Origin: Gammaproteobacteria bacterium
GTDB lineage: Bacteria > Pseudomonadota > Gammaproteobacteria > CAKMZV01
Direction: 5' to 3'
Assembly: GCA_965219665.1 (NCBI GenBank)
Contig: CBDCOD010000019.1
Span: forward strand, 30,070 to 94,069
Length of the DNA stretch: 64,000 nucleotides
Program-made: the position numbers and the translations under genes
The notes under the pieces: generated by a model
Told to the model about the DNA's origin: nothing
The model's input: only the letters and a program-made list of their open reading frames with translations
The model's database searches: none
Shown: piece by piece, positions 43,693 through 64,000 of the stretch
Position numbering within the stretch: position 1 is the first letter of the stretch
Layout: each line of letters opens with the position of its first letter

Positions 43693-43697
43693 GAGTT

Positions 43698-44066: not shown

Positions 44067-44191
44067 TTGACACGGCTCCTATCCGCAGCAAGCCCTGCTT
44101 GCACCACCTAAAATCAGGAATTTTTACCCTTTAATGCTGGCTCGGCACCCTTCAAAAGCTGCCGAGTCTATGCCCATTTTTATTAAAAAAC

Positions 44192-47525: not shown

Positions 47526-48662
47526 TTAACCTGAGCAGGTCAACTGCACACTACTCTGTATGCTGTAACCCATATCTATCTTACAAATACGGTAATAACG
47601 CGCTATAGACTCCCCTAATATATCCGTTAAGCGCTTATTGATTTTTGACACCACTTCAGATATACGGGGGGATAATTCGTGCTGATCACCTTCACCTACC
47701 CCCCATGTCTTCTTTACATCCTGAAAACGCCCTGCACTAGTAAGTGGCCTTAATAATTTAAGGAACAACGCTGTATCAAAAGCAGTCCAACTGACCCGCT
47801 CATTCACCTCAGTCTTACATAACAACAACTGATAAAAAGCAGCCTGTAGTGGCGGTAACTCCAGTGTTGTACCACCATGCAACATAAAGGACGCTTTCCC
47901 CCTCTCCCAATGAATGCTGGGGGGGTGCTGCATTTGTCTTATATAGCTTTTAATTTCCCCAAAACGCGTAATACGCTGTAAAAACGCTTGCGATAAATTA
48001 TCACGCGCTGACAAAATCGGCAAACTAATCAGTGAAACACGCGCCTCTTTAGCATCTAACGCTTCACCGCTGGCTGTCACAACGGTCTCTTCTCTTGGAT
48101 AATAAAAATCAGAGCACTCATACTGCTTATCAACCAAAACATGCGACAACACATCCTGTGGACGCGCATAAATAGACATTAAATAGCCCAGATAAAAGCT
48201 CATCGTTTTGCGCCCCCCTGCAAGTGAGGCATGCAAAATGCTATCGGTATCAGCCGTAAATTTTTGCACTAAACTGGCAAGCAAATCAGCACATAACACA
48301 CTGTTCTCCACACTATTAACATCCTCAATAATACCATCTGTTGACATAATAGAATGAATCTTAAGCCAATCTTTAGGCATATCCTTTAGCCCAAAATCGG
48401 CACAAAATCGGCGCAAAACACCCCCTTGATCCAGCACACCCAATCGCTGCACACCCACCAGTGTGGTTACCACATGGATCTCAGTTGGTATAAAAGCAGG
48501 CTCTTGCTTAACTAAAGCATACAGTGTCTCCGTAATAACAGATGGACTAACACCTGCCACACACAATAAAATTTTCCGTTCAGTATTCATTTTTAGTACT
48601 GGTTTGCATTCGTATTTACAGCTGGTATTACAGCCCTTTTTATTATCCTGCATTATCGTCAT
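47526..48662 (-). CDS. CARF-domain protein (Csx1/Cas_NE0113-like), C-terminal domain unassigned
   Basis: ILLCVAGVSPSVITETLYAL is the hallmark CARF N-terminal motif, and ASLAGGRKTMSF is the second CARF motif. No obvious R-x4-6-H HEPN motif in the C-terminal ~150 aa. The true start may be the internal Met at 48590. Confidence 0.7.
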   Translation of the reverse strand: MTIMQDNKKGCNTSCKYECKPVLKMNTERKILLCVAGVSPSVITETLYALVKQEPAFIPTEIHVVTTLVGVQRLGVLDQGGVLRRFCADFGLKDMPKDWLKIHSIMSTDGIIEDVNSVENSVLCADLLASLVQKFTADTDSILHASLAGGRKTMSFYLGYLMSIYARPQDVLSHVLVDKQYECSDFYYPREETVVTASGEALDAKEARVSLISLPILSARDNLSQAFLQRITRFGEIKSYIRQMQHPPSIHWERGKASFMLHGGTTLELPPLQAAFYQLLLCKTEVNERVSWTAFDTALFLKLLRPLTSAGRFQDVKKTWGVGEGDQHELSPRISEVVSKINKRLTDILGESIARYYRICKIDMGYSIQSSVQLTCSG

Positions 48663-49682: not shown

Positions 49683-49850
49683 GCCCTATTACGCGATAGC
49701 TTCCAGCGTGTGGTGCTGCTTAAACCTCAAGTTGCACCACACTTTATAAAAGAATACCAACCAAGAGCCATAAGAGGACGATATGACCACACAAAAGTTA
49801 CCACAGCCGCAGGCGATCGGTAACCAACAGCATACAAAAGGAGATATATT

Positions 49851-50621
49851 ATGTCAGAAACACTATTTTTCATTATTTTTATTACACTCTGCATTGTCCT
49901 TGCAATAAAAACCAAAAGCCTGCCCTCAGCAGAGGAGCGGCACAAAATGCGCTTGCAGAAAAACCAGCAAAGACGATTAAGCCATGCTGGCAAAATCAGA
50001 AAAGCAAGAAGAAGCGGCTCAAGCCGTGGAGGAGGGTTAAACCATGTCGGGCTTGGCATGGCAGCGGGTGCAGCAGGATTGGCAGCATACAGCACCCTAT
50101 CCAACAGCGATGATGCTATCGCTTCATCAAACACCTCTACAGCCTTTGATGATAGTTCCTCAAACATCACCAGTTTTGACATAAACCCTGCAAATGGACT
50201 GCCCATGGTGGATGGAATAGGTAGCATAGATATTGGAGGCAATACCTATGGCACCGACTCCGATACCTTTGATGATAGTTCCTCAAACACCACCAGTTTT
50301 GACATAAACCCTGCAAGTGGACTGCCCATGGTGGATGGAATAGGTAGCATAGATATTGGAGGCAATACCTATGGCACCGACTCCGATACCTTTGATGATA
50401 GTTCCTCAAACACCACCAGTTTTGACATAAACCCTGCAAGTGGACTGCCCATGGTGGATGGAATAGGTAGCATAGATATTGGAGGCAATACCTATGGCAC
50501 CGACTCCGATACCTTTGATCATAGTTTCTCATCCTTTGATGACAGCTTTTCATCCTTCGATGACAGCTTTTCATCCTTCGATGACAGCTTTTCATCGTCC
50601 TCTTTTGACGATGATTGGTAA
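49851..50621 (+). CDS. membrane-anchored acidic repeat protein (3 x 41-aa repeats plus SFDDSFSS mini-repeats)
   Basis: N-terminal TM helix, then three near-identical 41-aa units (DDSSSNTTSFDINPASGLPMVDGIGSIDIGGNTYGTDSDTF) and a C-terminal (SFDDSFSS)x3. Confidence 0.55.
   Translation: MSETLFFIIFITLCIVLAIKTKSLPSAEERHKMRLQKNQQRRLSHAGKIRKARRSGSSRGGGLNHVGLGMAAGAAGLAAYSTLSNSDDAIASSNTSTAFDDSSSNITSFDINPANGLPMVDGIGSIDIGGNTYGTDSDTFDDSSSNTTSFDINPASGLPMVDGIGSIDIGGNTYGTDSDTFDDSSSNTTSFDINPASGLPMVDGIGSIDIGGNTYGTDSDTFDHSFSSFDDSFSSFDDSFSSFDDSFSSSSFDDDW
50145..50513 (+). repeat. 3 x 123-bp near-perfect tandem direct repeat (coding), followed by 3 x 24-bp mini-repeats
   Basis: TTTGATGATAGTTCC... recurs at 50145, 50268, 50391 and 50514, a period of 123 bp with 1-2 mismatches per unit. 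Confidence 0.9.
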
Positions 50622-51074: not shown

Positions 51075-51368
51075 ATGAAAACAATACTCACCACCAGACA
51101 CCCTGCCACTGTGCAATGGCTTGCCCGTCAAGGCATTGCAGCAGAACAGGTCGATCATGTATCGTCTGACAGCATTACCCACCCGGTAAAACTCATTGGC
51201 AATGTCCCTCCAGCCATTGCCGCACAAGTATGCCAGCAAGGTGGCGAGTATTGGCACATTGACCTTGATTTACCTCAAACCATACGCGGCAAAGAACTCA
51301 GCGTTTCAGACTTAGAACAATATAAGGCTAAAATAATCCGCTATCACATTGAACAAATCACCTCTTAA
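51075..51368 (+). CDS. small hypothetical protein immediately upstream of cmr1 (candidate CRISPR accessory, Csx16-like?)
   Basis: About 97 aa starting MKTILTTRHPATVQWLARQG. Positioned as the first gene of the cmr cluster after an A-rich promoter-like region (51000-51060). Family assignment not verifiable from sequence alone. Confidence 0.35.
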   Translation: MKTILTTRHPATVQWLARQGIAAEQVDHVSSDSITHPVKLIGNVPPAIAAQVCQQGGEYWHIDLDLPQTIRGKELSVSDLEQYKAKIIRYHIEQITS

Positions 51369-51382
51369 ACGGCACCAAAACT

Positions 51383-52510
51383 ATGGAATTTATCAATCCT
51401 TTTGCAAACAACACGCTAACGGCAACCTATCAAATCAACACCCCCATGTTTTTAGGCGGTGCCGATGGCTGTGCAGATACCATAACCCCCCAATCTTTTA
51501 AGGGGCTCATGCGCTTTTGGTGGCGCGCATGGCAGTGGCAACATGCCAAGGGCAGCGACGATTCAGAAAAACTGGCTGACCTACACCACAAAGAAGCCCT
51601 ACTCTTTGGCTCCAGCGCACCAAAACCAAACACAAAAGACAAAAAGGAACTCTACGGTCAAGGTGCCTTTACTCCATAATCATTCGCCACGAGGAGCTCG
51701 AAAAACTGACCAACTGAGAACACGCAGAGTAAATTCAAATACCTTGCCTACGGCAATGCAATCGTTCAAAAAAGCAAATCCCGAAAAGGATACATCAAGA
51801 ACGCACAAAAGAACATACGAATCAAAAAAATGCACTTTTAAGCAGTTCAAGCTTACTTTAATAGACACAAGTACAGTTGACAGCTGAAGCATCAAGGCTA
51901 TGATGACGTAACCATAGACGCAACAACTTGACAACGACTTACTTAGACCTAATTGGAACTGGTAGGTAGTCTGGGCAGTCGCAAATCACGCAAAGGTTTC
52001 GGCAGTTCTATTCAGAAATAAGATGATTTTCTCTCACCCGCAGGTAATATCAAGAAAAAGTACTAAATGCACTTCTCAATGCCTACAACCAGATATGACA
52101 TGCGCGCTCCGTATCACTGCATTTTCCAAACTAATAAAATACGTAGCTGGCAGGCAGTGACAAAAAAAAACGACTCAACTGCATTGCTCCGCTTCCTGAC
52201 AAGGTCATTACCTGAAAGAGCTAGAACAAATGAGTGGTGCCTTTCCTCAGGCAACCGCCAAAAAGAAGGCATGAAAAATAAACGTCAACTGCTTGGTCTT
52301 AACGATTAAAGACATTAACGATAAACGATCGTCATAGCGCGCCCGTCTTTTTCCACATTCCATCAACAACAGTTCAAGACCCAAATATACGTTACTTCTT
52401 ATGCCATCAAACATGTACTTCACCCAGCACCTGCGCTCTTTGAGAAAACAACCATAGATGAAAAGAAGGGGCTGGCTGCCGTCAAGAACTATGTAAACAA
52501 TATAGCTCAA
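51383..52510 (+). pseudogene. cmr1: cmr1 remnant (type III-B RAMP Cmr1), disrupted by multiple stops and frameshifts
   Basis: The first 98 codons (51383-51679) carry the Cmr1 RAMP motif ITPQSFKGLMRFWWRAWQ, then terminate. The remaining ~830 bp before cmr2 carries only short ORFs in several frames (51543-51887, 52067-52309). Stops at 51677, 51707 and 51843 lie in the original frame. Confidence 0.6.
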
Positions 52511-52528
52511 ACCACGCAAAATTAAAAC

Positions 52529-54493
52529 ATGACAAAAAAATACTTTCACCTCACCATCGGCCCCGTGCAAGGGTTTATAGCCAGCGCGCGCCGTACCCGC
52601 GATTTATGGGCAGGATCCTTCATCCTCTCCACGCTATCTGCCGTTGCCATGCGCTCCGCTATCGCTCAAGAGAGCACAACAATCATTTTCCCCGCTGCTG
52701 ATAAGGGCTCTCTGCAATGGTTGGAACCCTCTAATACCCAACCTGAACGATTCCCTAACTACCCCAACCGCTTTATGGCAGAAGTGCCAGCAGACTTTAA
52801 CCCCCAAGCCGTAGTTACAGACATCAACGCAGCGTGGCAATCAATCGCCAATGCAGTCTGGACAGCAGACTTTCAAAACGCCAACGCAGAAACCAAAGCA
52901 ATCTGGGATAGACAAGTTGCACATTACTGGGAAATAAGTTGGGTGCTGACAGATGACCGAAAAGACACCAGTGCCTTAGATCGGCGCAAAAACTGGCGCA
53001 GCCACATCCCCCCTGCAGAACCCGGTAATAAATGTATGCTCATGGACAGCTTACAAGAGCTCTCCGGCAGCCTACAGGCAAGCACTATAGAACGACAAAC
53101 ATTCTGGAAAAAACAAGCACAAGTAAGCAAGAGATTAGATATAAGCGCCAAAGAACATTTAAGTGCCATTGCCTACATCAAACGCCGCCTAATCATTGCT
53201 CTTAAAGAAGGTATCCAGGCAGAATTAACAGGATGGCAATTAAACCTCAAAATAAATCCAAGTGATGCCAACGAAGACGACATTCGCTCTCAAGCACCCT
53301 CCACCGCTCACATTGCCGCCGTCGATTGGCTAAAAGCCATTAAAAACAAAATGCAAGATGATCAAACAGCCGAAGAAAAAATCAAAACCAACATCCGTAG
53401 ATTGATCGAATCCATTGAAGGCATACCCCAAACCAATCATTTACTCAAAAGCGAAAGCAATTCGACTCTCATTAAAGACAACAGAAAAAATTCTAACTTT
53501 AATAATCTTAGTTACTGTGAAGCCAGTCTGTTTTATCCACACCTTATCAATTCCCGCTTAGACTTGGAACTCACACCCGACAACGAGCGAAAGCTGCTCG
53601 ACAACCTCAACGCACTATGCGAGCGCGTAGACAAAAAGCCCACTGCCTTTTATGCAATACTGTGCATGGATGGCGACAGCTTTGGGCAATTCCTGAGCAA
53701 CTCACAAAACCACGCCAAAATCAGCAAAGGGCTAAATGCATTCACTAAAGAAGTGCCGAAAATAGTAAAACAACATACAGGCTTCACCCTCTATGCCGGC
53801 GGTGAAGATGTGCTTGCCATGCTCCCCATTAGCCAAGCCATTGCTTGCGCCCATAAGCTGCAACAAGAATTTACTGCAATTTTTCAAAGTAAGCTGAATA
53901 AGGGCGGAGAGAACGTACTGCCCACCATCAGCGCCGGCATCGTCTTTAGCCACCTCAAAATGCCGCTGATGCAAAGCATAAGCCGCGCCCATGAGGTCTT
54001 AGACGACATTGCCAAAGAACAAACCGGGCGTAATGCCATCGCCTGTGAAATCAACAAACCCTCTGGTCGTACCGCACAATGGGCAATGCCTTGGGACAAG
54101 GCAGCCGATGACGATGATAACAGCGCTATGATGATTAGCACTATTAGCGAGACATTAAAAGAGAAAAATCAAGCCGATGCCTCTTTTTCTACCAAATTCC
54201 TCTATCACTTTCGCAATAGTTATCACTTATTCAAAGATAAGAACAGCCATGAGGCAATAAGCAAAGATCTGCTCACTGCCTTAGTGATCAGCAACCTACA
54301 ACAAAGCAAAGGGCGCGCTGCTGAACTCAGCGCAGCAGAACAAAAACTTGCCAAACAAATCATCGATCAATCCTGGATTTATAAATCAGATAGCAAAGGG
54401 CAGCCCATACAAAGCGACCAAATAAGTGATGCCTTCGTAATGCTCGCCCGCTTCTTAGCCACTGATGGCATAGACGGAGGGAACCGCACATGA
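52529..54493 (+). CDS. cmr2: Cmr2/Cas10 lacking the HD nuclease domain, with a cyclase palm domain carrying GGED
   Basis: N-terminus LTIGPVQGFIASARRTRDLWAGSFILSTLS is the conserved Cmr2 D1 block. Palm motifs ILCMDGDSFGQF (about 53666-53690) and YAGGEDVLAML (GGED at 53801-53812). 654 aa, consistent with Cmr2 minus the ~215-aa HD domain. Confidence 0.85.
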   Translation: MTKKYFHLTIGPVQGFIASARRTRDLWAGSFILSTLSAVAMRSAIAQESTTIIFPAADKGSLQWLEPSNTQPERFPNYPNRFMAEVPADFNPQAVVTDINAAWQSIANAVWTADFQNANAETKAIWDRQVAHYWEISWVLTDDRKDTSALDRRKNWRSHIPPAEPGNKCMLMDSLQELSGSLQASTIERQTFWKKQAQVSKRLDISAKEHLSAIAYIKRRLIIALKEGIQAELTGWQLNLKINPSDANEDDIRSQAPSTAHIAAVDWLKAIKNKMQDDQTAEEKIKTNIRRLIESIEGIPQTNHLLKSESNSTLIKDNRKNSNFNNLSYCEASLFYPHLINSRLDLELTPDNERKLLDNLNALCERVDKKPTAFYAILCMDGDSFGQFLSNSQNHAKISKGLNAFTKEVPKIVKQHTGFTLYAGGEDVLAMLPISQAIACAHKLQQEFTAIFQSKLNKGGENVLPTISAGIVFSHLKMPLMQSISRAHEVLDDIAKEQTGRNAIACEINKPSGRTAQWAMPWDKAADDDDNSAMMISTISETLKEKNQADASFSTKFLYHFRNSYHLFKDKNSHEAISKDLLTALVISNLQQSKGRAAELSAAEQKLAKQIIDQSWIYKSDSKGQPIQSDQISDAFVMLARFLATDGIDGGNRT

Positions 54494-55572
54494 ACAACAC
54501 CATGCAAACCACCCACATCACCCTCACCCCCAACGACAGCCTGTTCTTTCGTGAATCCCGCCCTATGGAATCAGTCGGCGGCGCTATCCTAGAAAGCCAG
54601 TTTCCACCCAACCCCCAAACCCTTATTGGCGCCCTAAAAGGCTATGTTGGCGAGCAATATGGTGTGGACTTTAAAACCGTTCGCGAAAACACTAAAAAGG
54701 GCAAGCCCTATACAAAAGAGGGCTTCACCATGGACTTTGGTGACAGCAACGCAGACCTCTCCATAACCGATATGGCACTACGCCATCAAGACACGGGCAT
54801 AGGCACAGACTACTACCCTGCCCCTCTCTTTGTGGCTTACAGCGAAACCGATAAGCAATATGCTCTCATTCAACCCAGTGCGCAATCAACTGAATGCGAT
54901 TTAGGCAACGTACACTTACCCACCCTCCCTAAAGAGAAGACGGGCTATAAACCCTTAGAAAACGCTTGGCTGAGTAGTAAAGACTACACCAATGTCCTTC
55001 AAGGCAAACTGCCCACGAGCCACCTTAAAAAAAGCGCCATCCTTAAGGATGAGTTTCATCTTGGCATCAGCATTGACAAAGAGAGCAACACCGCAGAAGA
55101 CCACAAACTCTATCAAAGCATGCACACCCGCCTCAAGCAAGGCATGCAGCTGCATCTCACGCTCCGACACCGTAAAGACATACAAATCAACAACGGAACC
55201 ATCCGCTTAGGCGCAGAAGGAAGAAGTGCCCAACTCACAATCATCGAATCGCCCGAAAGCATCACCTCCACCCCTAAAAATAACAAAATAAGCCTAATCT
55301 TAACCACCCCCGCACTGTTCAAAAACACAGACGCACTGCATGAAGCAATAGCGCAATACGGCACCCTGATCAGCGCCTGCTTAGGCAAAACCACCCGAAT
55401 GGGCGGCTGGAATTTAGCCCAAAATCAACCACGAGAAGCCATCTCAGCCATTCCCGCTGGCAGCACGTGGTTCGTTGAGGCAAGCCCTAACGCATGCCCC
55501 CCTGCCGCCATTGGCGAGCAAACAACTAAAGGCTTTGGCATCGTCCGTTGCGGCACCTGGCAGCACCTATAA
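54490..55572 (+). CDS. cmr3: Cmr3
   Basis: N-terminus LTPNDSLFFRESRPM...SQFPPNPQTLIGALKG is typical of Cmr3. C-terminal G-rich loop TTKGFGIVRCG. ATGA overlap with cmr2. Confidence 0.8.
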   Translation: MNNTMQTTHITLTPNDSLFFRESRPMESVGGAILESQFPPNPQTLIGALKGYVGEQYGVDFKTVRENTKKGKPYTKEGFTMDFGDSNADLSITDMALRHQDTGIGTDYYPAPLFVAYSETDKQYALIQPSAQSTECDLGNVHLPTLPKEKTGYKPLENAWLSSKDYTNVLQGKLPTSHLKKSAILKDEFHLGISIDKESNTAEDHKLYQSMHTRLKQGMQLHLTLRHRKDIQINNGTIRLGAEGRSAQLTIIESPESITSTPKNNKISLILTTPALFKNTDALHEAIAQYGTLISACLGKTTRMGGWNLAQNQPREAISAIPAGSTWFVEASPNACPPAAIGEQTTKGFGIVRCGTWQHL

Positions 55573-55597
55573 ACACCCCAAAATTGAGGAATATAAT

Positions 55598-56443
55598 ATG
55601 AAAAACACCATACTTGGACTACACGCACAAACCGCCATCCACGCAGGATCAGGGCAATCATTGGATGTCATCGACCTCCCCATTCAGCGCGAAGCCCACT
55701 CAGGCTACCCCGTTATCTTTGGTTCATCGCTCAAAGGCGCCCTGCGCGCCCATGCTGACCACAACAACGCTGAACACCTCAGCACCATCTACGGTTCAGA
55801 AAATGCGGAACACGCCAGCGCCATCCGCATCAGCGATGCCAAGCTCATCGCCCTGCCGGTGCGCTCACTCACCACCCACTTTCGCCTTGTAACCTGCCCA
55901 CACCTCTTAGAACGCCTCAACCGCGACCTCGCCCAAATTGGCAAGAATACATTAGAAATACCCAGCGTTAAAAATGAAACTGAGATTCGCACCGCTGATC
56001 AAAAAGATCAAACAAACCTATTCTTAGAGGAGTACCGCTACACCGTACGCACCTGTGGGAAACTACCGCACTGGCAACAACAAATAGCGGAACTCACCGG
56101 ACAAAACAGCGAACAGTTAGCAAACCTATCCGTCATCTCCAATGACCAGTTTGCTCACATCTGCCAAACCGCCACTGCCATTGCCCCACACATTGCCATT
56201 GACAATAAAAACAAAACCGTCAAAGGCGGCGCACTCTGGTTTGAAGAAACCCTACCCCCCGAAACGCTCCTCTACAGCCTCATCAGCGCGGTTGATGCTC
56301 GACATAAAGACACAACATTAAAAGCGACTGAAGTGCTTAACGCATTCAAGCAGCCTCTAACAGAAAGCTATCTCCAAGTCGGCGGCAACGAAACCGTGGG
56401 CATGGGTTGGTGCAAGGCGACGGTAACTGGAGGTGCACAATGA
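55598..56443 (+). CDS. cmr4: Cmr4 (backbone RAMP, target-RNA cleaving subunit)
   Basis: MKNTILGLHAQTAIHAGSGQSLDVIDLPIQRE...IFGSSLKGALRAHA are the RAMP G-rich and catalytic-loop motifs. The start was chosen at the ATG at 55598, which has a GAGGA SD; the ORF track begins at 55475. Confidence 0.9.
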   Translation: MKNTILGLHAQTAIHAGSGQSLDVIDLPIQREAHSGYPVIFGSSLKGALRAHADHNNAEHLSTIYGSENAEHASAIRISDAKLIALPVRSLTTHFRLVTCPHLLERLNRDLAQIGKNTLEIPSVKNETEIRTADQKDQTNLFLEEYRYTVRTCGKLPHWQQQIAELTGQNSEQLANLSVISNDQFAHICQTATAIAPHIAIDNKNKTVKGGALWFEETLPPETLLYSLISAVDARHKDTTLKATEVLNAFKQPLTESYLQVGGNETVGMGWCKATVTGGAQ

Positions 56444-56838
56444 GTAATACGATTACACCCCAAACCATTGAGCAACAGCGCGCAGCGTTTGCATACCAAT
56501 TAGTCACAGCTCATAAAAAGAACGATCGACTCAAAGCCTACGCCCGTAACCTACCAGGCATGATACTCACCAACGGCTTTGGGCAAGCCATGGCGTTTTG
56601 CCTATCTAAAAGCGGCAAGAATAACAGCAATGAAGAACAAGCCTATACAGCCCTGCAACAAGGCATCTTTGAATGGCTTGGGGCTGAACCGCAAAAACTG
56701 CTTAATGGTGGCTCAGACATCGTTGCCGCCATTACTGAACTTGACCAACACCGATATCAACTCGCCACTGCCGAAGCCCTTGCTCTATGCAAATGGATCA
56801 AGCAACTCGCCACCGCTCTCATTGAAGATACAGACTAA
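56440..56838 (+). CDS. cmr5: Cmr5 (small alpha-helical subunit)
   Basis: About 132-aa helical protein between cmr4 and cmr6. ATGA overlap with the cmr4 stop. Confidence 0.7.
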   Translation: MSNTITPQTIEQQRAAFAYQLVTAHKKNDRLKAYARNLPGMILTNGFGQAMAFCLSKSGKNNSNEEQAYTALQQGIFEWLGAEPQKLLNGGSDIVAAITELDQHRYQLATAEALALCKWIKQLATALIEDTD

Positions 56839-56867: not shown

Positions 56868-58126
56868 ATGCCCATGTCAAACCCATCAATGTTGCCACTA
56901 CACAAATCTTGTAAAGACGCAGCCAAGCAATTAGATTCACACCTTGGTCTCTCAGGTTCACACCTTGGTCTCTACTTTGATAAATACTTCTCCTACTCCC
57001 GCTCTCCAAATAATAACATTGAAGCCGCACCTGAAAACAAAAAAGAATTTCTAAAAAAATTCAACAAAGCTAACATCCCACCATCGCTTGAAAATGCCAA
57101 CATCAATCAAGTACGACTCATCCAAAAATTAAACGGCACATTCAAAGCCTTCAAAACCACCTCCTCCTTTGTAACCGGCATGGGGCAAGATCACCCCTTA
57201 GAAAATGGCTTTGCTTTTCACCCCACCTACGGCACCCCCTACCTCCCCGGCAGCAGTGTCAAAGGCATGCTGCGCCACTTCTTTACCCACCACTACCAAT
57301 GGGGAAATGAAGATAAAGCAACATTCCTCAACCAAGTATTCGGCAGCGATAATCCCAAGCAACCCGCCATAGGAAACTACCTGTTTTTTGATGCCCTCCC
57401 TACCGAGACCGTCACAATGCACACCGAAATCATGACCCCGCACTACGGCGATTGGTACGCAAAAGGAGGCGACAAAACAGAAAATACAAAAAACGACACA
57501 TCATCCCAGGCGATTGGCACGAACCAATCCCTATCCAATTCCTTGCTGTCAAAAACGCCACCTTCCTCTTTGCCATCGCCCCGCGCAATGGCACAACCGA
57601 GCAGCCTGACTACCTCTCCTTTCTCTTTAAAGGACTCGACTGCATCCTCATGCACCTTGGCGCTGGTGCCAAAACTGCCACCGGCTTCGGTTATATGGCT
57701 TTTAATGAAGAACAAACTGAAAAATCAGAAGAAAATGCGCTAACCCCCGAAGAAAAGAAAGAGCGCGAGCGAAAAATTGAAGAGCAGAAGCAAAAAGAGA
57801 TTAAAGAGAATGCATGGAAAGAAACTAAAGCAAAAGAACAGGCAGAAGCAGCAAAGCGAGCAGCATTTGACAGCACCCTATCTACAACAGATAAATGGTT
57901 TTTAGAGAAAAACTATGCAGAATGCTCTCCAGATGGCGATGCCCTGGTTTTCAAAATAACCAAGCCCAACAAGGCACTCAAAGACCCTGACTTATCCTCA
58001 AATTTTGAGTTAAAGAAGGCGGTCATTGAAGTCATACAGGTGCATAAAGAAAAACCCTATTCCCACACCTTCTGGGACAAAACAATACGCAAAAAGGTCA
58101 ACGATTCACTCAAAAAAATGAAATAA
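56868..58126 (+). pseudogene. cmr6: cmr6 with an internal frameshift (two overlapping reading frames, 56868-57743 and 57452-58126); it carries an unusual ~170-aa charged C-terminal extension
   Basis: Frame A has the RAMP block YGTPYLPGSSVKGMLRHFF. Frame B has the C-terminal G-rich loop HLGAGAKTATGFGYMAF. The frames switch between 57447 and 57517, where a 9-bp direct repeat GGCGATTGG flanks a 62-bp segment. Confidence 0.75.
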
Positions 58127-58191: not shown

Positions 58192-59127
58192 ATGAACTTA
58201 GAACTTATGCAACTAATAGAACAATTCGGCTTTAGCCTCTTCGTCTTCGCTTTAATCACCCTTCTGCTCATCTACCTCCTGATGGGCATAAAAATCGTAC
58301 CGCAAGCACAGCAATGGGTTATTGAGCGATTAGGCTCCTACAATCGCACCTTAGACGGTGGGCTCAACTACATCATACCCATCGTTGACTCTACACGCGC
58401 CAAATACCAAACACAAGAACAAGTCATTGACATTCCCTCGCAGCGCGTTATCACCCGTGATAACGTTTCCATCTCTATTGATGGACTCGTATTCATCCGC
58501 ATCACCAACGCCAAACAAGCCATCTATGGCGTATTAGACATGCGACACGCCATCTCACAATTGGCACAAACCACGCTCCGCTCCGAAATTGGCAAAATGG
58601 ACTTAGACGACTCCCTCTCCTCACGCGACCACCTTAACGCCGCACTCCTCACCGCATTAGATAATGCTGCAGGTGGCTGGGGTGTCAAAGTAACGCGTGT
58701 AGAAATATCTGACATTGACGTACCCAGCGAAGTCAAAACAGCCATGGAACTGCAACTGCGCGCCGAGCGCGAACGCCGCGCCACTGTTACCAAAGCCGAA
58801 GGCGATAAAAACGCCGCCATTGCTCAAGCCGAAGGCGAGCGGCAACGTGCCTTTAAAGAAGCTGAAGCTATTGAGCGCACGGCAGACGCTAAACAATATG
58901 AGCAAATTCAACTTGCCGAAGGACAAAAGCAAGCGATGGAACTCATCAACCTGGCAATGGAAAACAACCCCCAAGCTGCCGATTTTTTACTTGCAAAAGA
59001 CCGCATCAAAGCCTTCAATGACCTTGCCAAAAACACCAGTCAAGACAAAGTTATCGTACCGTACGAAGCCAGTGCCCTCGTTGGCGCACTCTCAATTATC
59101 ACTGAGAACCTTACTAATAAAAAATGA
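58192..59127 (+). CDS. SPFH/band-7 (stomatin/paraslipin-like) membrane protein
   Basis: N-terminal TM helix, then KIVPQAQQWVIERLGSYNRTLDGGLNYIIP, the canonical SPFH start. C-terminal Ala/Glu-rich coiled coil. 311 aa. Confidence 0.85.
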   Translation: MNLELMQLIEQFGFSLFVFALITLLLIYLLMGIKIVPQAQQWVIERLGSYNRTLDGGLNYIIPIVDSTRAKYQTQEQVIDIPSQRVITRDNVSISIDGLVFIRITNAKQAIYGVLDMRHAISQLAQTTLRSEIGKMDLDDSLSSRDHLNAALLTALDNAAGGWGVKVTRVEISDIDVPSEVKTAMELQLRAERERRATVTKAEGDKNAAIAQAEGERQRAFKEAEAIERTADAKQYEQIQLAEGQKQAMELINLAMENNPQAADFLLAKDRIKAFNDLAKNTSQDKVIVPYEASALVGALSIITENLTNKK

Positions 59128-59555
59128 CCACTCTACTCATCCCAGCTATACCCGCGTGGTATCTCATCATCATCGGCATAGCCATTGTTGGTGTTGAACT
59201 GTTTTTCATGAACCTATTCGTCATACTCTGGTTTGGACTGGCAGCCATATTCATTGGTGCCCTCAACTTATTTTTACCCTTTTCTCACGGCGAATATCAA
59301 CTACTACTCATTGCACTAATCGGCAGCACTGCCCTGTTCATGTATCATAAAAAATACAAACCATCACGCACCAAAAATAAACACTTAGACTCCTATACTA
59401 CAGGTGGAACAGGTAGCGTAATCACCACTAATCAAGGCATTAAAATCAATTATCAGGGAACGCTCTGGAGCATTGCCCCACCAGCCCCCACCAACCTAAA
59501 AGACGGCGACAACGTCATCATCAAAGAAATCAAGTCCAATCAAGTCGTTTTATGA
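59124..59555 (+). CDS. NfeD-like short-form membrane protein (partner of SPFH proteins)
   Basis: Three hydrophobic helices, then a C-terminal OB-fold-like region (GTGSVITTNQGIKINYQGTLWSIAP...GDNVIIKEI), as in YuaF/YbbJ. ATGA overlap with the SPFH gene. Confidence 0.7.
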   Translation: MTTLLIPAIPAWYLIIIGIAIVGVELFFMNLFVILWFGLAAIFIGALNLFLPFSHGEYQLLLIALIGSTALFMYHKKYKPSRTKNKHLDSYTTGGTGSVITTNQGIKINYQGTLWSIAPPAPTNLKDGDNVIIKEIKSNQVVL

Positions 59556-60589
59556 TTCTCATATCACTGATTGGACCACAAATTCTCCCCAATATTTTTG
59601 CGCTCCGACACTACGGCAATGAAATCAGCAAGCACTTCATACTCTGCGATAAAAACCCTAAAAATCTGGCAGCTGCCCAATTGCTTAAAGATTTTTGTGA
59701 ACCAAGCGGCATGCCAACCATCGTCATAACAGCCAACCTCAAACAAGCCCACAGTTGCTACAACGTTTGCTGCCAAATCATTGAAGACAACCGTGCCGTG
59801 CAAACCATTCTCAATGCCACCTGTTCGCTCAAAACTGCCGCTCTTGGTGCTTTCATGGCAATGCAACAGCACAATCAGCGCACCATCTATGTTGACGGGC
59901 AAAGAATCCAACGCGTCCACCACTCAGAGGATCACAACACCATCGCCCCTATTAAAGCCCGCATCAGTATTGCAGACTACCTACAAGCATACGGCTTTAG
60001 CATCACACCCTCTACCCAAGACCACACCATAGGGGAAAAATTTGGCAACTACCTCTTCGACGACAACTTGCTCAGAATATGGATGAGGGATAGTAAATAC
60101 ACCCCCCACGAACGGATTGCAAAATGGCTCAGAAGCAACAACATACTCGCAGGCAACCGCACGATAAAACCTGAAAAACGGGCATGGTATTCTGGCACCT
60201 GGTTTGAGCAATGGGTCTATGTCACACTGAAAAAACACTTTGCAAAAAATCCTGCTGTATCCGACATTTGTAGCAGCTTTAAGGTGAAAAAACATGCAGA
60301 AAATGAAATAGACGTTGCCTTTGTTCATAATAACATCCTGCACCTGATTGAATGCAAAGCAGGAAAGCCCGAAAAACAAAGCCAAGAAGGCCTGCGCTTC
60401 TCCAGCGTTGCTGAAACCATTGGTGGCACCTACACCAAATGCGCCGTACTATTTTTGCGCCCAACAAAAGACACCATAAAAGAACGCGCCAGCGACACCA
60501 CCAACTTACACTACATTGACAACATTGAAAACACAACCGACTTATGCACCAAAGTAGATCAATGGCTTGAAAAATCAAATTTCTCATGA
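59552..60589 (+). CDS. CARF + PD-(D/E)xK nuclease (Can2/Card1-like cOA-activated nuclease)
   Basis: N-terminus MILISLIGPQILPNIFAL is the CARF strand-1 motif. The C-terminus has E...IDVAFVHNNILHLIECKAGK at 60311-60360, i.e. D...E-C-K. 345 aa. ATGA overlaps on both sides. Confidence 0.7.
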   Translation: MILISLIGPQILPNIFALRHYGNEISKHFILCDKNPKNLAAAQLLKDFCEPSGMPTIVITANLKQAHSCYNVCCQIIEDNRAVQTILNATCSLKTAALGAFMAMQQHNQRTIYVDGQRIQRVHHSEDHNTIAPIKARISIADYLQAYGFSITPSTQDHTIGEKFGNYLFDDNLLRIWMRDSKYTPHERIAKWLRSNNILAGNRTIKPEKRAWYSGTWFEQWVYVTLKKHFAKNPAVSDICSSFKVKKHAENEIDVAFVHNNILHLIECKAGKPEKQSQEGLRFSSVAETIGGTYTKCAVLFLRPTKDTIKERASDTTNLHYIDNIENTTDLCTKVDQWLEKSNFS

Positions 60590-61452
60590 ACCCCAAAAAC
60601 AACCCGGCACAAAACTTTAAGCTAAAAAATGCACTCACTAGCACCTTTGGCAGTCTGGACCTAACAACCATAGGAATCGCCATACTCCTATTAGCACTTA
60701 TTGGCTGGAGCGCAGACAGCCTACTCAACACCCTCACCTTTAGCATAGCTTCCCCCTTAACGCACCTTAGCATAGCAGCACTATCACTCGCTGCCTTATC
60801 CCTTCTTATAAAAATACTGCATAAAAAAGCACAAGGCATAGGCAACAACCTCCTCATTGAAGCCACCCAAAACAAACCCAAACGCTTAGATGCCCAAAAC
60901 CTTATTTTTATCGTATCGCCTGCAAGGCACTTTGCCGATATAGATAAAAAACTACAATGCCCAGATACACAAAAAAACCTACAAGAATTGATAGAAGAAG
61001 AATCCACAGAAACGAAACCGACTACACAACCCAAAAAAAAATACCAATGGTATATGCCCTATAGCACCATCAAAGAACATCAGCCCAAAAACATCTATCC
61101 CATCTTTACTTCAGGCGAATATGGCAGCAGTAAACAAAAAGAGACTTTCTTAAATCTCTTTAGAGGCATATTCCCCGACAAAACCATTCATGATGCAGAT
61201 TATCAAACCCTACAATCCACCGATTTGACTGAGCTATCCAAAGCCTACGACAAGATAGAACAAAAAGTTCTCAACGACGACAAATACCGCCCCAACCAAA
61301 TTCTCGTTGATGTAACAGGCGGTCAAGCCTCCATGAGCGCCATGCTCGCTGTCAACTCCACCATTGATGATGCCATCATCAGCTACGTGGACACCAATGA
61401 CTATAAAATTCACTACTTTGACTTTCGCAGCCACAACCCATCAGAAGAATGA
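60586..61452 (+). CDS. two-TM membrane protein with a C-terminal CARF domain (Cam1-like membrane effector)
   Basis: Hydrophobic helices at about aa 27-48 and 58-80. The C-terminal ~180 aa has the CARF-like motifs LIFIVSPA and ILVDVTGGQASMSAM at 61301-61340 (D-x-T-G-G-x-x-x-M). 288 aa. Confidence 0.55.
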   Translation: MNPKNNPAQNFKLKNALTSTFGSLDLTTIGIAILLLALIGWSADSLLNTLTFSIASPLTHLSIAALSLAALSLLIKILHKKAQGIGNNLLIEATQNKPKRLDAQNLIFIVSPARHFADIDKKLQCPDTQKNLQELIEEESTETKPTTQPKKKYQWYMPYSTIKEHQPKNIYPIFTSGEYGSSKQKETFLNLFRGIFPDKTIHDADYQTLQSTDLTELSKAYDKIEQKVLNDDKYRPNQILVDVTGGQASMSAMLAVNSTIDDAIISYVDTNDYKIHYFDFRSHNPSEE

Positions 61453-62297
61453 ATGCCTTCCTCCCGCTATTCAAAATCCAAATAACCCTTACAGCCCTAT
61501 CCTCTATTACATTTCGCACTCCCCATCACAACATCATTTTAGATGCCTTCCTACGCTCACTCCTCAGCCAAGAGCAAAAAAAACAATACGCCACCACGCT
61601 TATCATCAGCCCCCAAACACCAATCCAAGCCATCACATACGGCAACGCCTACACCTTTAACATCACAGCCATTAACAATGCCCTTCTGCTTAGCCGGCTA
61701 CTATTCCAACTCAAATCCTTACCATTCTCTGCCCGTATTCGAGACACAACAGCCCCGCTACGCCACAACCTCAAATTCCACCAAGCCACCTGTATGCACA
61801 CAGGTCATAAAGCCAACAGCATTAAAGACCTCACCCCAATCCAAGCCATAGACCTTGAAAACAGAGCATTAGAACTCGCCTCGCATAGCCAGCTCCCCAT
61901 AACCCTAAACTTAGCACGCCTCAAAAAAAGCCACCTTAAAAAAACCAGCAACACCGAACAAAACTTCGCCCAAAACAGCACCGAACTAACCGCTGAACTC
62001 CTATTAGAGCGCATCAACACCACCATAAGCCACCTACACCGTGCGCTCAACATAAATGCCACACCGCAGCCCCCTCTTCCTACAGCCACCACAACAACGC
62101 AATACTGCAAATGGATAAACCTACCCTACTTTGACAAAAACAAGCAGGAAAAAACATGCGGCGGACTCAACGCACAACTCACGCTAAGACCGCAAAACTG
62201 GTCATTGGACCACTACCGCCAACTGGCACTGATTGAACACGTAGGCATTGGACAACGCCGCACATCTGGTTTTGGCACGCTCACCATCAACGCATGA
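61449..62297 (+). CDS. cas6: Cas6-like RAMP endoribonuclease (standalone)
   Basis: C-terminal glycine-rich loop HVGIGQRRTSGFGTL (G-h-G-x5-G-h-G) typical of Cas6. 282 aa. ATGA overlaps with its neighbours. Confidence 0.55.
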   Translation: MNAFLPLFKIQITLTALSSITFRTPHHNIILDAFLRSLLSQEQKKQYATTLIISPQTPIQAITYGNAYTFNITAINNALLLSRLLFQLKSLPFSARIRDTTAPLRHNLKFHQATCMHTGHKANSIKDLTPIQAIDLENRALELASHSQLPITLNLARLKKSHLKKTSNTEQNFAQNSTELTAELLLERINTTISHLHRALNINATPQPPLPTATTTTQYCKWINLPYFDKNKQEKTCGGLNAQLTLRPQNWSLDHYRQLALIEHVGIGQRRTSGFGTLTINA

Positions 62298-64000
62298 AAA
62301 TTCCCCTACCGAAACTACCTTCCCAGCAAGCCCTCAGCGTTGACCTCCAGTTTATACAGCCCCAAAATCTTCCACTCTACCATGAACCTGTTATTCAAAA
62401 TGCACTCAAGGCACTCACCCGCCAACTGCTCCCCTCAAACACCTCCACCCCTTTTACCCTCATCTGCCCCGAAAGCGCCCGCACCCACTATCCTGCAAAC
62501 ACCTCCTACTACTTTTGCATAATCAGCCTCAGCATAGACTCCATACAACCCCTCTGGCAGCAACTCATCATCAAACTGCGCCAACTCCCGATAGAATCAA
62601 CGCCCTTTATCAAAAACTGCACCCTCATATCGCTACGAAACCTCTTAGACGGCACGCCCGTATCCAATGCCCAATCCTTAACCCAATACACCTTTGACTT
62701 AGCACTATCGCAAGCAACAGACTGGCGCAACACACAAACCACAACCCTTAATTGGCGCTGGATTAGCCCTGCCCATACCCCTATCGGCAACACCTTATGC
62801 CGCGATAAAACCGAGCTATCTGCCAAACACCTCTGTGAACAAATCGCACACAGCCTATACGATCTCATCCAGCACAATAACAGCACCGAAACAAACCACT
62901 TATTTCATCTATGGACTCAATCCCAGTACAAGCATATAGCAATACATAAAGCCGATCTATATTGGATAGACACCCCTTATCACCCAAATCAAACCAATTT
63001 CTCTGGCATATCAGGTAACTTTACATTTAGCCTGTCTGAAGAGGCCCCCACCAAATTATTAGCCCTCATCATCTACGCTCAGAATATTGGCATTGGCCTT
63101 AATTACCAAAAAGGATTTGGCAAATACCGCCTCTCAAGCCCAAACGATACGTACTTCTCCACACTATCCAACCACTGCATGCCCATCACGCGCTGTGAAT
63201 CATTGCTCAAGCACTTTACGCACCCCCAAATGATTGAACGCGCCATTGCAGAATTAGAGCAAAAACCCAACATCGACAAGCTCAGCGACAAAACCCATGC
63301 CCAAATACAATCTGCCATTGGTCAAGTTCGCAAACAAGATTACACCCCTCCTAATTTATTTGGGTTCACCACGCCTAAAAAAGACGGCACCGACCGCCTA
63401 CTCGCTGTCGCTCCCCTATATGATCGCATCCTACAAAAAGCCTGTGCCATCGCACTCACACCCACCTTAGAAGCTATCATGAGCCAAGCCTCCTTCGGCT
63501 ACCGCAAAGGACTATCACGCCAGCAAGTCCGCTATGCTATTCAGCAATACTACAGGCAAGGCTACAAGTGGGTCTTGGAATCCGACATTGATGATTTCTT
63601 TGACTCCATTAACCGCACGCTACTCATCAATCGCCTTGCCAGTTTTTTTGGCCCTGACCCACTATGGAACCTCATGGAACAATGGCTCAACAGACCCATA
63701 ATCTATCAAGGGCACACTATCCAACGTCCCGATGGCATACCACAAGGCTCACCTCTCAGCCCACTACTAGCAAACTTTATTCTGGACGACTTTGACTCTG
63801 ACCTTGAAGCCTATGGTTTCAAACTCATTCGCTTTGCTGACGACTTTGTTATTCTCTGCCGCTCTAAATCTGAAGCCATAGAAGCACGCAGTGCCGTAAC
63901 GAAACATCTCAAAGAAATCAATCTCAAACTCAATCCAGAAAAAACCCACATTAGCGAAATAGACCACGGGTTCCGCTTTTTAGGTTACCTTTTCCACGAA
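62294..64000 (+). CDS. Cas6-reverse transcriptase fusion (N-terminal part of a Cas6-RT-Cas1 protein), truncated by the window end
   Basis: Manual translation finds no stop from the ATG at 62294 to 64000. The N-terminal ~330 aa end in a second Cas6 G-rich loop, NIGIGLNYQKGFGKYRL. After that come RT motifs: RLLAVAPLYDRILQ, QGSPLSPLLANFIL and the catalytic box FADDFVIL. Absent from the ORF track because it is edge-truncated. Confidence 0.8.
   Translation, partial: MKIPLPKLPSQQALSVDLQFIQPQNLPLYHEPVIQNALKALTRQLLPSNTSTPFTLICPESARTHYPANTSYYFCIISLSIDSIQPLWQQLIIKLRQLPIESTPFIKNCTLISLRNLLDGTPVSNAQSLTQYTFDLALSQATDWRNTQTTTLNWRWISPAHTPIGNTLCRDKTELSAKHLCEQIAHSLYDLIQHNNSTETNHLFHLWTQSQYKHIAIHKADLYWIDTPYHPNQTNFSGISGNFTFSLSEEAPTKLLALIIYAQNIGIGLNYQKGFGKYRLSSPNDTYFSTLSNHCMPITRCESLLKHFTHPQMIERAIAELEQKPNIDKLSDKTHAQIQSAIGQVRKQDYTPPNLFGFTTPKKDGTDRLLAVAPLYDRILQKACAIALTPTLEAIMSQASFGYRKGLSRQQVRYAIQQYYRQGYKWVLESDIDDFFDSINRTLLINRLASFFGPDPLWNLMEQWLNRPIIYQGHTIQRPDGIPQGSPLSPLLANFILDDFDSDLEAYGFKLIRFADDFVILCRSKSEAIEARSAVTKHLKEINLKLNPEKTHISEIDHGFRFLGYLFHE

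What the first reader, a model, noticed from the sequence alone, without database searches (positions are those of the whole stretch)
52529..54493. Cas10/Cmr2 without HD domain, with GGED instead of GGDD in the cyclase palm
The protein starts directly at the conserved IGPVQGFI...RDLWAGS block that follows the HD domain in full-length Cmr2, so it has no ssDNase. Immunity would then rest on Cmr4 RNA cleavage plus cOA signalling, consistent with the three CARF proteins nearby. The second palm motif reads GGED (53801-53812) rather than the canonical GGDD. Whether the D-to-E change preserves cOA synthesis decides whether the downstream CARF effectors can ever be activated.
Basis: partly seen in the sequence, partly recalled or inferred. 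Interest (0 to 1): 0.6.

Follow-up and report, generated by a model that had tools for sequence, protein, structure and literature searches.

The report
HD-less Cas10 with GGED cyclase motif
This is a genuine type III-B CRISPR Cas10/Cmr2 that naturally has no HD nuclease and carries a rare but recurrent, already documented GGED version of the cyclase motif; in this genome, broken cmr1 and cmr6 genes threaten the system more than the D-to-E change does.

Summary
ORF 52529-54493 (654 aa) is Cas10/Cmr2 (Pfam palm2 E 6e-36, TIGR02577 E 6e-45). It has no HD domain.

Neither feature is unusual in kind. All ~270 relatives listed from the two searches are 449-729 aa with no room for an HD domain; Pfam, precomputed for 120 of them, finds none. 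Published surveys put an HD domain in only 39% of Cas10s.

GGED aligns residue for residue with P. furiosus GGDD and sits on the predicted beta-hairpin tip. It occurs in 6 of 150 family representatives, each of which has a GGDD protein as its closest relative. It also occurs in 27 Cas10 genes across many phyla, some in complete cmr operons or next to CARF genes. The Cas10 of the solved DtCmr complex (PDB 9arw) has it, and Hoikkala et al. 2024 list it.

All four strain variants keep GGED, and cas10 dN/dS is 0.30. The cyclase is therefore probably active.

In this window cmr1 is a pseudogene with 12 in-frame stops and cmr6 carries a frameshift. Both genes are intact in a sister locus. No CRISPR array lies in the window.

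This is an ordinary, divergent member of a known kind.

The parts
52529..54493 (+). cas10/cmr2, 654 aa, naturally HD-less large subunit of a type III-B (Cmr) complex
   Evidence: Pfam Cmr2_N plus Cas10-Cmr2_palm2, TIGR02577. PADLOC Cas10 E 9e-72. AF2 model matches Cmr2 structures 3ung, 3w2v and 9arw at E ~1e-20 to 1e-21.
53798..53809 (+). GGED (aa 424-427), the palm-2 hairpin motif in place of GGDD
   Evidence: alignment to P. furiosus GGDD. (hairpin between strands 419-424 and 427-432).
53669..53677 (+). D381-G382-D383 (in MDGDSFG), the conserved Asp-containing motif on the first palm-2 strand; retained
   Evidence: Invariant D381, G382 and D383 in the family alignment. MDGDxxG in the representatives. 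Aligns to P. furiosus MDGDDMG.
52766..52768 (+). N80 in PNRF, equivalent to P. furiosus N300 at the acceptor-ATP site (Asp in SAM-AMP synthases)
   Evidence: Alignment to P. furiosus LPNK; the residue numbering is my own count. Role of N300/D70 taken from PMC10600005. PNRF is conserved in 129 of 150 representatives.
51383..52525 (+). cmr1 pseudogene. The first 97 codons are intact. The rest has 12 in-frame stops and only 27% aa identity to the intact sister allele.
   Evidence: TIGR01894 hit on the 98-aa fragment. tblastn and frame analysis. Intact 354-aa Cmr1 in L001.
54490..55572 (+). cmr3 (360 aa), intact
   Evidence: Pfam Cas_Cmr3 E 7e-51.
55595..56443 (+). cmr4 (282 aa), intact RNA-cleaving backbone subunit
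   Evidence: TIGR02580 E 1e-64.
56440..56838 (+). cmr5 (132 aa), intact
   Evidence: Pfam Cas_Cmr5 E 3e-29.
56868..58126 (+). cmr6 split by a frame switch at about 57497-57500. The lesion is a net 1-nt loss in an A-rich variable stretch. It could be real or an assembly error.
   Evidence: Two ORFs hit TIGR01898 positions 3-132 and 126-194. tblastn finds frames 3 and 2. Sequence comparison with the intact 411-aa Cmr6 of L001.
51075..51368 (+). csx16 (Cas_VVA1548), 97 aa
   Evidence: Pfam E 4e-24. PADLOC Csx16 E 3e-26.
47526..48662 (-). CARF protein of the NE0113/CARF5 family
   Evidence: Pfam Cas_NE0113 E 2e-30, TIGR02584 E 5e-48. PADLOC CARF5 E 4e-78.
58192..59127 (+). SPFH/Band-7 membrane scaffold protein inside the accessory-gene chain
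   Evidence: Pfam Band_7 E 9e-38. 4-nt overlap with the next gene.
59124..59555 (+). small membrane protein, NfeD-like by architecture only
   Evidence: Hydrophobic N-terminal part read from the translation. No Pfam or PADLOC hit.
59552..60589 (+). Card1/Can2-like CARF + PD-(D/E)xK nuclease effector (345 aa)
   Evidence: Pfam Card1_endonuc E 1e-12 and CARF_Card1 E 3e-8. PADLOC CARF4-PDDEXK E 4e-45.
60586..61452 (+). transmembrane CARF protein (288 aa)
   Evidence: PADLOC TM+CARF E 5e-20. Weak TIGR02710 hit.
61449..62297 (+). possible Cas6-like RAMP (282 aa); weak evidence
   Evidence: TIGR01877 E 0.005 and PADLOC Cas6 E 9e-4. C-terminal glycine-rich 'GFG' loop.
62294..64000 (+). Cas6-like N-terminus + reverse transcriptase (RT-Cas1 type adaptation gene); runs off the window
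   Evidence: Open frame of at least 568 codons. RVT_1 E 3e-39. PADLOC Cas1_IIIb E 3e-59.

Best explanation
The ORF is a genuine, full-length Cas10/Cmr2 of the naturally HD-less Cmr2 family. One relative examined (L063) also carries RT, Cas1 and Cas2 genes.

In an intact system the expected mechanism is as follows (inferred from the family, not tested here). A Cmr1-6/crRNA complex binds complementary RNA and Cmr4 cuts it. Target binding switches on the Cas10 palm domains. These polymerise ATP into cyclic oligoadenylate, which activates the Card1/Can2-like CARF nuclease, the TM-CARF protein and the NE0113-type CARF protein. There is no DNase arm.

GGED is a conservative variant of the palm-2 metal-binding hairpin and most likely leaves the cyclase active. 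The Glu keeps the carboxylate. The other conserved motifs checked, D381/D383 and the acceptor-site Asn80, are intact.

In this particular genome signalling is probably limited by other things. cmr1 is a pseudogene, cmr6 has a frameshift, and no CRISPR array lies within the 64 kb. The locus looks like a recently damaged copy of a system that is intact in a sister strain.
For: Identity and architecture.

HD-less as a family trait: the 120 nearest 90%-clusters carry only the Cmr2_N and palm2 Pfam domains at 591-702 aa. The 150 best 50%-cluster representatives are 449-729 aa, median 650. Published figure: 39% of Cas10s have an HD domain. B. fragilis and V. metoecus Cas10 are working HD-less precedents.

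GGED is tolerated:
(a) 6 of 150 family representatives are GGED and each has a GGDD protein as nearest neighbour, so the change arose several times.
(b) 27 Cas10 genes reading YAGGED were found in species genomes across Bacteroidota, Ignavibacteria, Clostridia, Bacillota, Chloroflexi, Rubrobacter, Thermoproteota, Verrucomicrobia, Methylococcaceae and deltaproteobacteria.
(c) L003, L034 and L054 each show six ORFs in cmr1-6 order and of matching sizes around the GGED Cas10. Pfam hits pooled over all 27 loci include Cmr3 in 15 ORFs, Cmr5 in 9 and RAMPs in 34. Cas_APE2256 CARF genes lie directly after cmr3 in L007, L024 and L036.
(d) The Cas10 of PDB 9arw (DtCmr complex) reads YAGGEDFL.
(e) Hoikkala et al. 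list GGED among motif variants in loci with known effectors.
(f) All four ≥90%-identical strain variants keep GGED. cas10 dN/dS between the window and L001 is 0.30, with 32 of 60 changes nonsynonymous against a neutral expectation of 79% (p = 8e-6).
(g) The related GGDEF cyclases work with Glu at the same motif position; WspR's active-site loop is GGEEF.

cOA rather than SAM-AMP: N80 matches P. furiosus N300, whereas SAM-AMP synthases have Asp there. The neighbouring effectors are CARF proteins.

Damage in this strain. Intact sister locus. Cmr1 and Cmr6 are needed for target capture in P. furiosus.
Against: No GGED Cas10 has been shown here to make cOA. I could not find a paper on DtCmr, so its activity is unknown to me.

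The protein is an outlier. It is 37% identical to relatives that are 53% identical to each other, and it departs from 49 of 185 columns that are ≥90% conserved in those relatives, against a median of 4 for other members. That could reflect relaxed constraint.

cas10 itself is split in two in another strain's 1.56 Mb contig.

The cmr6 frameshift is a single-base lesion in an A-rich stretch and may be an assembly error.

A CRISPR array may lie just beyond the window, downstream of the RT gene, or elsewhere in the genome.
Confidence: 0.63

Rival explanations
1. GGED is one symptom of a cyclase that is losing or has lost function. The whole island is decaying, and the Cas10 is an inactive or weakened relic, so the CARF effectors are never triggered.
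For: cmr1 is a pseudogene and cmr6 is frameshifted in the window. cas10 is split in another strain. The protein departs from 49 of 185 family-conserved columns, including F8L, G76P, W250D, D331E/G332A and Y448F. Only the query among the 120 nearest 90%-clusters is GGED. No CRISPR array is in the window.
Against: The sister locus L001 has every cmr gene intact together with the same GGED. cas10 dN/dS is 0.30, significantly below neutral. D381/D383 and N80 are kept. GGED recurs in intact operons with CARF effectors and in a solved complex. Many of the 49 deviations are conservative and fit a long, poorly sampled branch; the host's GcvP is also only 63% identical to its nearest non-self relative.
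Confidence: 0.17
2. The system in this genome is fully functional. The cmr6 frameshift is a sequencing or assembly error, Cmr1 is dispensable in this lineage, and crRNAs come from an array outside the window.
For: The cmr6 lesion amounts to one missing base in an A/C-rich stretch. All other island genes are intact and tightly coupled. An open Cas6-RT-(Cas1) reading frame follows. The rest of the window is densely packed with ORFs of at least 100 codons that hit housekeeping families.
Against: cmr1 has 12 in-frame stops of three kinds spread over 850 nt, which a homopolymer error cannot explain. The sister strain keeps a full-length Cmr1. [quoted passage not shown]
Confidence: 0.12
3. The D-to-E change retunes the enzyme rather than preserving or killing it. 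Possible effects are a different metal preference, a slower rate or a different product.
For: The longer Glu side chain must shift metal geometry (inference). Cas10 enzymes are known to vary in product, for example SAM-AMP in B. fragilis through acceptor-site changes. The loop before PNRF is altered here (P73E, Q75F, G76P).
Against: There is no positive evidence. GGED lineages are scattered among GGDD relatives and pair with ordinary CARF effectors. The acceptor-site Asn is the ATP type.
Confidence: 0.08

Closest known systems
HD-less type III-B Cas10/Cmr2 of Vibrio metoecus and Bacteroides fragilis
   Same: No HD nuclease. Immunity depends on the cyclase and is carried out through ancillary effectors (PMC10600005). 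The gene sits in a cmr1-6 operon.
   Different: B. fragilis has the two Asp residues D328/D329 and an acidic acceptor site (D70), and it makes SAM-AMP for a CorA effector. The window protein has GGED, Asn at the acceptor site and CARF effectors. Sequence relationship to these proteins was not measured here.
Cas10/Cmr2 of the 'DtCmr' type III-B complex (PDB 9arw, 9z7q, 9z7v, 9z7x)
   Same: It is the best PDB match to the family profile (E 2.5e-51). It is HD-less (612 aa) and carries GGED in the same hairpin, with a PNRF Asn.
   Different: Foldseek reports 20% identity. It belongs to the 'GGEDFL' group related to Clostridium and Ignavibacteria Cas10s. I could not find its biochemistry in the held papers.
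Pyrococcus furiosus Cmr2 (PDB 3w2v, 3w2w, 4w8y)
   Same: Same palm1-D2-palm2-D4 fold (Foldseek E ~5e-21, TM 0.64-0.70). The motifs align.
   Different: P. furiosus Cmr2 has an N-terminal HD domain of about 200 aa and canonical GGDD. Identity is about 18%.
GGDEF diguanylate cyclases with a GGEEF active-site loop (e.g. WspR)
   Same: Same palm hairpin chemistry. Glu at the third motif position is compatible with catalysis (PMC2270323). The query gives weak DGC hits.
   Different: These enzymes have a different substrate (GTP), product and regulation. This is an analogy, not membership.
RT-Cas1-associated type III-B loci (e.g. Methylotuvimicrobium sp. KM2, L063)
   Same: cmr1-cas10(HD-less)-cmr3-4-5-6 operon with RT, Cas1, Cas2 and Cas6 nearby. 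37% identity to the query.
   Different: L063 has GGDD and no SPFH/NfeD-like or Card1-like genes in the 10 kb flanks.

Membership tests
Cas10/Cmr2 (type III-B large subunit) | N-terminal Cmr2_N/palm-1 region with the GPVQ.F...R...DLWAGS block | tested here: met
   Pfam PF12469 aa 6-107, E 1e-20. Aligns to P. furiosus Cmr2 residues just after the HD domain.
Cas10/Cmr2 (type III-B large subunit) | Second palm domain with the GGDD-type hairpin | tested here: met
   PF22335 aa 374-505, E 6e-36. The hairpin is present with GGED in place of GGDD.
Cas10/Cmr2 (type III-B large subunit) | Encoded in an operon with cmr3, cmr4, cmr5 and cmr6 (and cmr1) | tested here: met
   cmr1 and cmr6 are damaged in the window and intact in L001.
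Cas10/Cmr2 (type III-B large subunit) | Overall fold matches solved Cmr2 structures | tested here: met
   AF2 model pTM 0.86. Foldseek E 4e-21 to 1e-20 against 3ung, 3w2v and 9arw.
HD-nuclease-bearing Cas10 | N-terminal HD domain | tested here: not met
   No HD hit in Pfam or NCBIfam. The protein starts at the post-HD block, and a stop codon lies one codon upstream of the ATG. All family relatives are equally short.
Catalytically competent Cas10 nucleotide cyclase | Two acidic residues in the palm-2 hairpin (GGDD) | tested here: inconclusive
   Both positions are acidic (E426, D427), but the first is Glu rather than Asp. The variant recurs in intact systems. Activity is untested.
Catalytically competent Cas10 nucleotide cyclase | Conserved Asp residues on the first palm-2 strand (DxD) | tested here: met
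   D381 and D383 are invariant in the family and present here.
Catalytically competent Cas10 nucleotide cyclase | Target-RNA-dependent synthesis of cOA | not testable with these tools
   Needs a reconstituted complex and an ATP assay.
SAM-AMP-synthesising Cas10 | Acidic residue at the acceptor-site position equivalent to P. furiosus N300 (B. fragilis D70), and a CorA effector | tested here: not met
   The query has N80 in PNRF (role from PMC10600005). No CorA-type hit was found in the island, and the effectors are CARF proteins.
Functional type III-B interference module in this genome | All six cmr genes intact | tested here: not met
   cmr1 has 12 internal stops. cmr6 switches frame at about 57497.
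Functional type III-B interference module in this genome | A CRISPR array to supply crRNA | tested here: inconclusive
   No array in the 64 kb. One could lie beyond the RT gene at the window edge or elsewhere in the genome.

The most novel reading that the evidence does not exclude
In this lineage the Cas10(GGED)-Cmr3-Cmr4-Cmr5(-Cmr6) core still senses RNA and signals without Cmr1. It would signal to a membrane-centred effector set in which an SPFH/NfeD-like pair, translationally coupled to a Card1-like nuclease and a TM-CARF protein, forms part of the response. That would be a Cmr1-independent, HD-less type III-B system with an SPFH scaffold as a new accessory module.
Probability: 0.1. Interest if true: 0.55.

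Novelty: new member of a known kind. Interest (0 to 1): 0.2.

Why it matters
The two flagged features are HD-lessness and GGED. HD-lessness is common and documented for Cas10. GGED is rare but recurrent and also documented. They therefore do not open a new question.

The useful outcomes are practical.

1. GGED should be treated as a probable active-site variant when annotating type III loci. It makes up about 4% of representatives in this Cmr2 family and has arisen independently several times.

2. For this genome, the functional call should rest on the cmr1 and cmr6 lesions and the missing array, not on the motif.

3. The sister locus L001 offers an intact gene set in which E426D could be tested directly.

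Tried and rejected
- A hidden upstream HD exon. Rejected: the upstream 1.1 kb is a cmr1 remnant in the same frame, ending in TAA one codon before the cas10 ATG.
- A CRISPR array in the window. TRF and direct-repeat searches found none. There were also no tRNA or Rfam hits.
- Finding the source organism. A genome-contig scan with Cas10 peptides found nothing. The nearest non-self GcvP is only 63% identical and the named hits are Rhizobiales, so the host is an unnamed, poorly sampled lineage. A strain of it gave a 1.56 Mb contig.
- Fetching the other strains' loci (P0001, P0124, P0121, P0125, window Cmr4 and the NfeD-like protein). They are not on record. Only L001/L062 was retrievable.
- Identifying the DtCmr (9arw) paper, to learn whether a GGED Cas10 has measured activity. 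It is not in the held library.
- The supplements of Hoikkala et al. hold no per-locus motif table as text.
- Hypermutation (a deaminase-like bias) as the cause of the cmr1 divergence. Rejected: all 12 substitution classes are represented, with no transition bias.
- A SAM-AMP synthase reading. Rejected on the acceptor-site Asn and the CARF effectors.
- A literature link between SPFH proteins and type III CRISPR. None of the papers listed held both terms.
Full report
**1. What is at the coordinates**

ORF 52529-54493 on the + strand encodes 654 aa. Pfam finds Cmr2_N (aa 6-107, E 1e-20) and the Cas10/Cmr2 second palm domain (aa 374-505, E 6e-36). NCBIfam TIGR02577 (type III-B Cas10/Cmr2) scores E 6e-45, and PADLOC Cas10 scores E 9e-72.

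An AlphaFold2 model built on a 45-sequence alignment has mean pLDDT 81.9 and pTM 0.86. It matches solved Cmr2 chains (3ung, 3w2v, 9arw, 3x1l) at Foldseek E 4e-21 to 2e-20. The protein is Cas10/Cmr2 beyond reasonable doubt.

**2. No HD domain**

No HD family is hit. Residues 7-56 align to residues 29-79 of the P. furiosus 'Cmr2dHD' construct, the part that starts right after the HD domain.

The ATG is preceded, one codon upstream, by an in-frame TAA (52523-52525). The upstream 1.1 kb is the remnant of cmr1. In sister locus L001, an intact cmr1 ends 6 nt before cas10. A missed HD exon is therefore excluded.

HD-lessness is the family's native state:
- The 120 nearest 90%-clusters are 591-702 aa and carry only Cmr2_N and palm2.
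- The 150 best 50%-cluster representatives from an exhaustive profile search are 449-729 aa, median 650. That search found 8544 hits at E ≤ 0.001.
- Hoikkala, Graham and White (PMC11229360) report a recognisable HD domain in only 39% of 1113 type III loci.
- HD-less Cas10s of V. metoecus and B. fragilis give cyclase-dependent immunity (PMC10600005).

**3. GGED**

The motif is aa 424-427, nt 53798-53809 (GGC GGT GAA GAT).

phmmer aligns 'lyaGGEDvlamlp' to P. furiosus 'iYAGGDDVLAILP', and the upstream 'MDGDSFG' to 'MDGDDMG'. In the model, strands 419-424 and 427-432 flank the motif, so it sits on the hairpin tip. It is the true palm-2 motif with the first Asp replaced by Glu.

The change is a single third-position difference (GAA against GAT/GAC). 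D381 and D383 are invariant in the family and present here.

Asn80 in 'PNRF' aligns to the Asn of P. furiosus 'LPNK'. By my count of the Cmr2dHD numbering this is N300, the residue next to the acceptor ATP. In the SAM-AMP synthase of B. fragilis that position is Asp70. The query therefore has the ATP-type acceptor site.

**4. How unusual GGED is, and whether it is tolerated**

Frequency:
- Among the 120 nearest 90%-clusters, only the query is GGED; 118 are GGDD and 1 is GGGD.
- Among the 150 best 50%-cluster representatives, 143 are GGDD and 6 are GGED, including the query.
- Each GGED representative has a GGDD protein as its closest relative, so the change has arisen several times.

A pattern scan of one genome per 185,579 species for YAGGED-x-(L/F)-A found 60 sites. 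A family HMM recognises 27 of them as Cas10 genes. They come from Bacteroidota, Ignavibacteria, Clostridia, Bacillota, Chloroflexi, Rubrobacter, Thermoproteota, Verrucomicrobia, Methylococcaceae and deltaproteobacteria.

Their neighbours include 34 RAMP, 15 Cmr3, 9 Cmr5, 5 Cas_APE2256 (CARF) and 2 Card1-CARF ORFs. L003, L034 and L054 each show six ORFs in cmr1-6 order and of matching sizes around the GGED Cas10. L007, L024 and L036 have a CARF gene directly after cmr3.

The best PDB match to the family profile is 9arw chain A, 'guideless DtCmr Type III CRISPR complex'. It is a 612-aa HD-less Cmr2 and itself reads YAGGEDFL. [quoted passage not shown] In the related GGDEF cyclases, Glu at the same motif position is compatible with activity; WspR's active-site loop is GGEEF (PMC2270323).

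**5. Selection in this lineage**

The 90% cluster holds four strain variants, and all of them read GGED.

Against sister locus L001 (ENA ERZ25072490, 97.5-99% nucleotide identity over the island), cas10 has Sd 27.5, Nd 32.5 and dN/dS 0.30. The neutral expectation is that 79% of changes are nonsynonymous; 32 of 60 were observed (p = 8e-6). The other cmr genes give 0.15-0.44 and gcvP gives 0.03.

The protein is nonetheless an outlier. It is 37% identical to relatives that are 53% identical to one another. It departs from 49 of 185 columns that are ≥90% conserved in those relatives, against a median of 4 for other members.

The host is also isolated, with its nearest non-self GcvP at 63% identity. 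A long, poorly sampled branch could therefore explain the divergence as well as relaxed constraint could.

**6.

*cmr1 (51383-52525).* The first 97 codons match L001. The remainder shares only 27% aa identity with L001's intact 354-aa Cmr1. That remainder still aligns in the same frame at the recognisable motifs and contains 12 in-frame stops: 8 TAA, 3 TGA and 1 TAG. This cannot be a homopolymer artefact.

*cmr6.* It is read in frame 3 up to 57497 and in frame 2 from 57500. The two ORFs cover TIGR01898 positions 3-132 and 126-194, and L001 has one 411-aa ORF. The lesion amounts to one missing base in an A-rich variable stretch, so an assembly error cannot be excluded.

[quoted passage not shown] In another strain, cas10 itself is split into 149-aa and 481-aa pieces. 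No CRISPR array, tRNA or Rfam element is in the 64 kb.

The rest of the window is densely packed with ORFs of at least 100 codons that hit housekeeping families. The damage is therefore local to the island.

**7. The locus**

The island runs in this order:
- CARF5/NE0113 protein (47526-48662, minus strand)
- TraT lipoprotein and a repeat-rich TraS-like ORF
- csx16
- cmr1 (pseudogene)
- cas10
- cmr3, cmr4, cmr5
- cmr6 (frameshifted)
- SPFH
- small NfeD-like membrane protein
- Card1/Can2-like CARF nuclease
- TM-CARF protein
- weak Cas6-like ORF
- Cas6-like-RT(-Cas1) ORF that runs off the window

. From the SPFH gene to the RT gene, every junction is a 4-nt ATGA overlap. L001 has an integrase where the window has the RT gene. 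Two relatives examined have plain cmr1-6 operons without the SPFH pair. One is Methylotuvimicrobium L063, which also carries RT, Cas1 and Cas2. The other is a 2.7 Mb genome, seen on contigs L064 and L065.

**8. Verdict**

The Cas10 is an ordinary though divergent member of the HD-less Cmr2 family. GGED is a documented and recurrent variant that most probably keeps the cyclase active. The system would signal through cOA to CARF effectors.

Whether it can do so in this genome depends mainly on the cmr1 and cmr6 lesions and on a crRNA source, not on the D-to-E change. Steps shown here are identity, architecture, motif homology, recurrence, selection and the lesions. Steps inferred are catalytic competence, cOA as the product and the functional consequence of the lesions.

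Noticed in passing
51383-52525: The cmr1 pseudogene is a mosaic. Codons 1-97 are about 97% identical to the sister strain's gene. The rest is only 27% identical at the protein level, carries 12 in-frame stops, and still aligns in the same frame at three anchor motifs. The flanking genes are 97-99% identical. This looks like import of a divergent, dead allele by recombination (or repair in the sister strain). The origin is unexplained.
   Followed up: partly
56868-58126 (frame switch about 57497-57500): cmr6 is split by a net single-base loss in an A-rich variable stretch. The N-terminal half also has much higher dS (0.21) against L001 than its neighbours (0.005-0.04), another sign of mosaic recombination.
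   Followed up: partly
58192-59555: An SPFH/Band-7 gene and a small NfeD-like membrane protein lie between cmr6 and the Card1-like CARF nuclease. They are joined to the downstream CARF, TM-CARF, Cas6-like and RT genes by 4-nt ATGA overlaps. The arrangement is conserved in L001 and absent from two related Cas10 loci. None of the papers listed by the search held both SPFH and 'type III CRISPR'.
   Followed up: partly
62294-64000 (runs off the window): An open frame of at least 568 codons has a Cas6-like N-terminal part and a reverse transcriptase (PADLOC Cas1_IIIb model E 3e-59). It is probably a Cas6-RT-Cas1 adaptation fusion. The sister locus L001 has a phage-type integrase at this position instead.
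   Followed up: partly
48897-50621: A TraT-like lipoprotein is followed by a TraS-like ORF that contains a 123-nt repeat (3.2 copies, 98% identical) and a 21-nt repeat (3.2 copies). These are conjugative-element surface/entry-exclusion genes at the edge of the CRISPR island.
   Followed up: no
whole window; 42601-46993 for gcvT/H/P: The host is poorly sampled. The nearest non-self GcvP is 63% identical, and the named hits are Rhizobiales. A strain with identical GcvP has a 1.56 Mb contig, which hints at a small genome. Window GC is 43.6% and the island is 45.8%.
   Followed up: partly
L007, L024, L036 (genome-contig loci); PDB 9arw: A distinct 'YAGGEDFLAF' group of HD-less Cmr2 is found in Ignavibacteria, Bacteroidia and Clostridium. 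In these loci a Cas_APE2256 CARF gene follows cmr3 directly. The solved DtCmr Cas10 belongs to this group (E 5e-87 to L024).
   Followed up: partly
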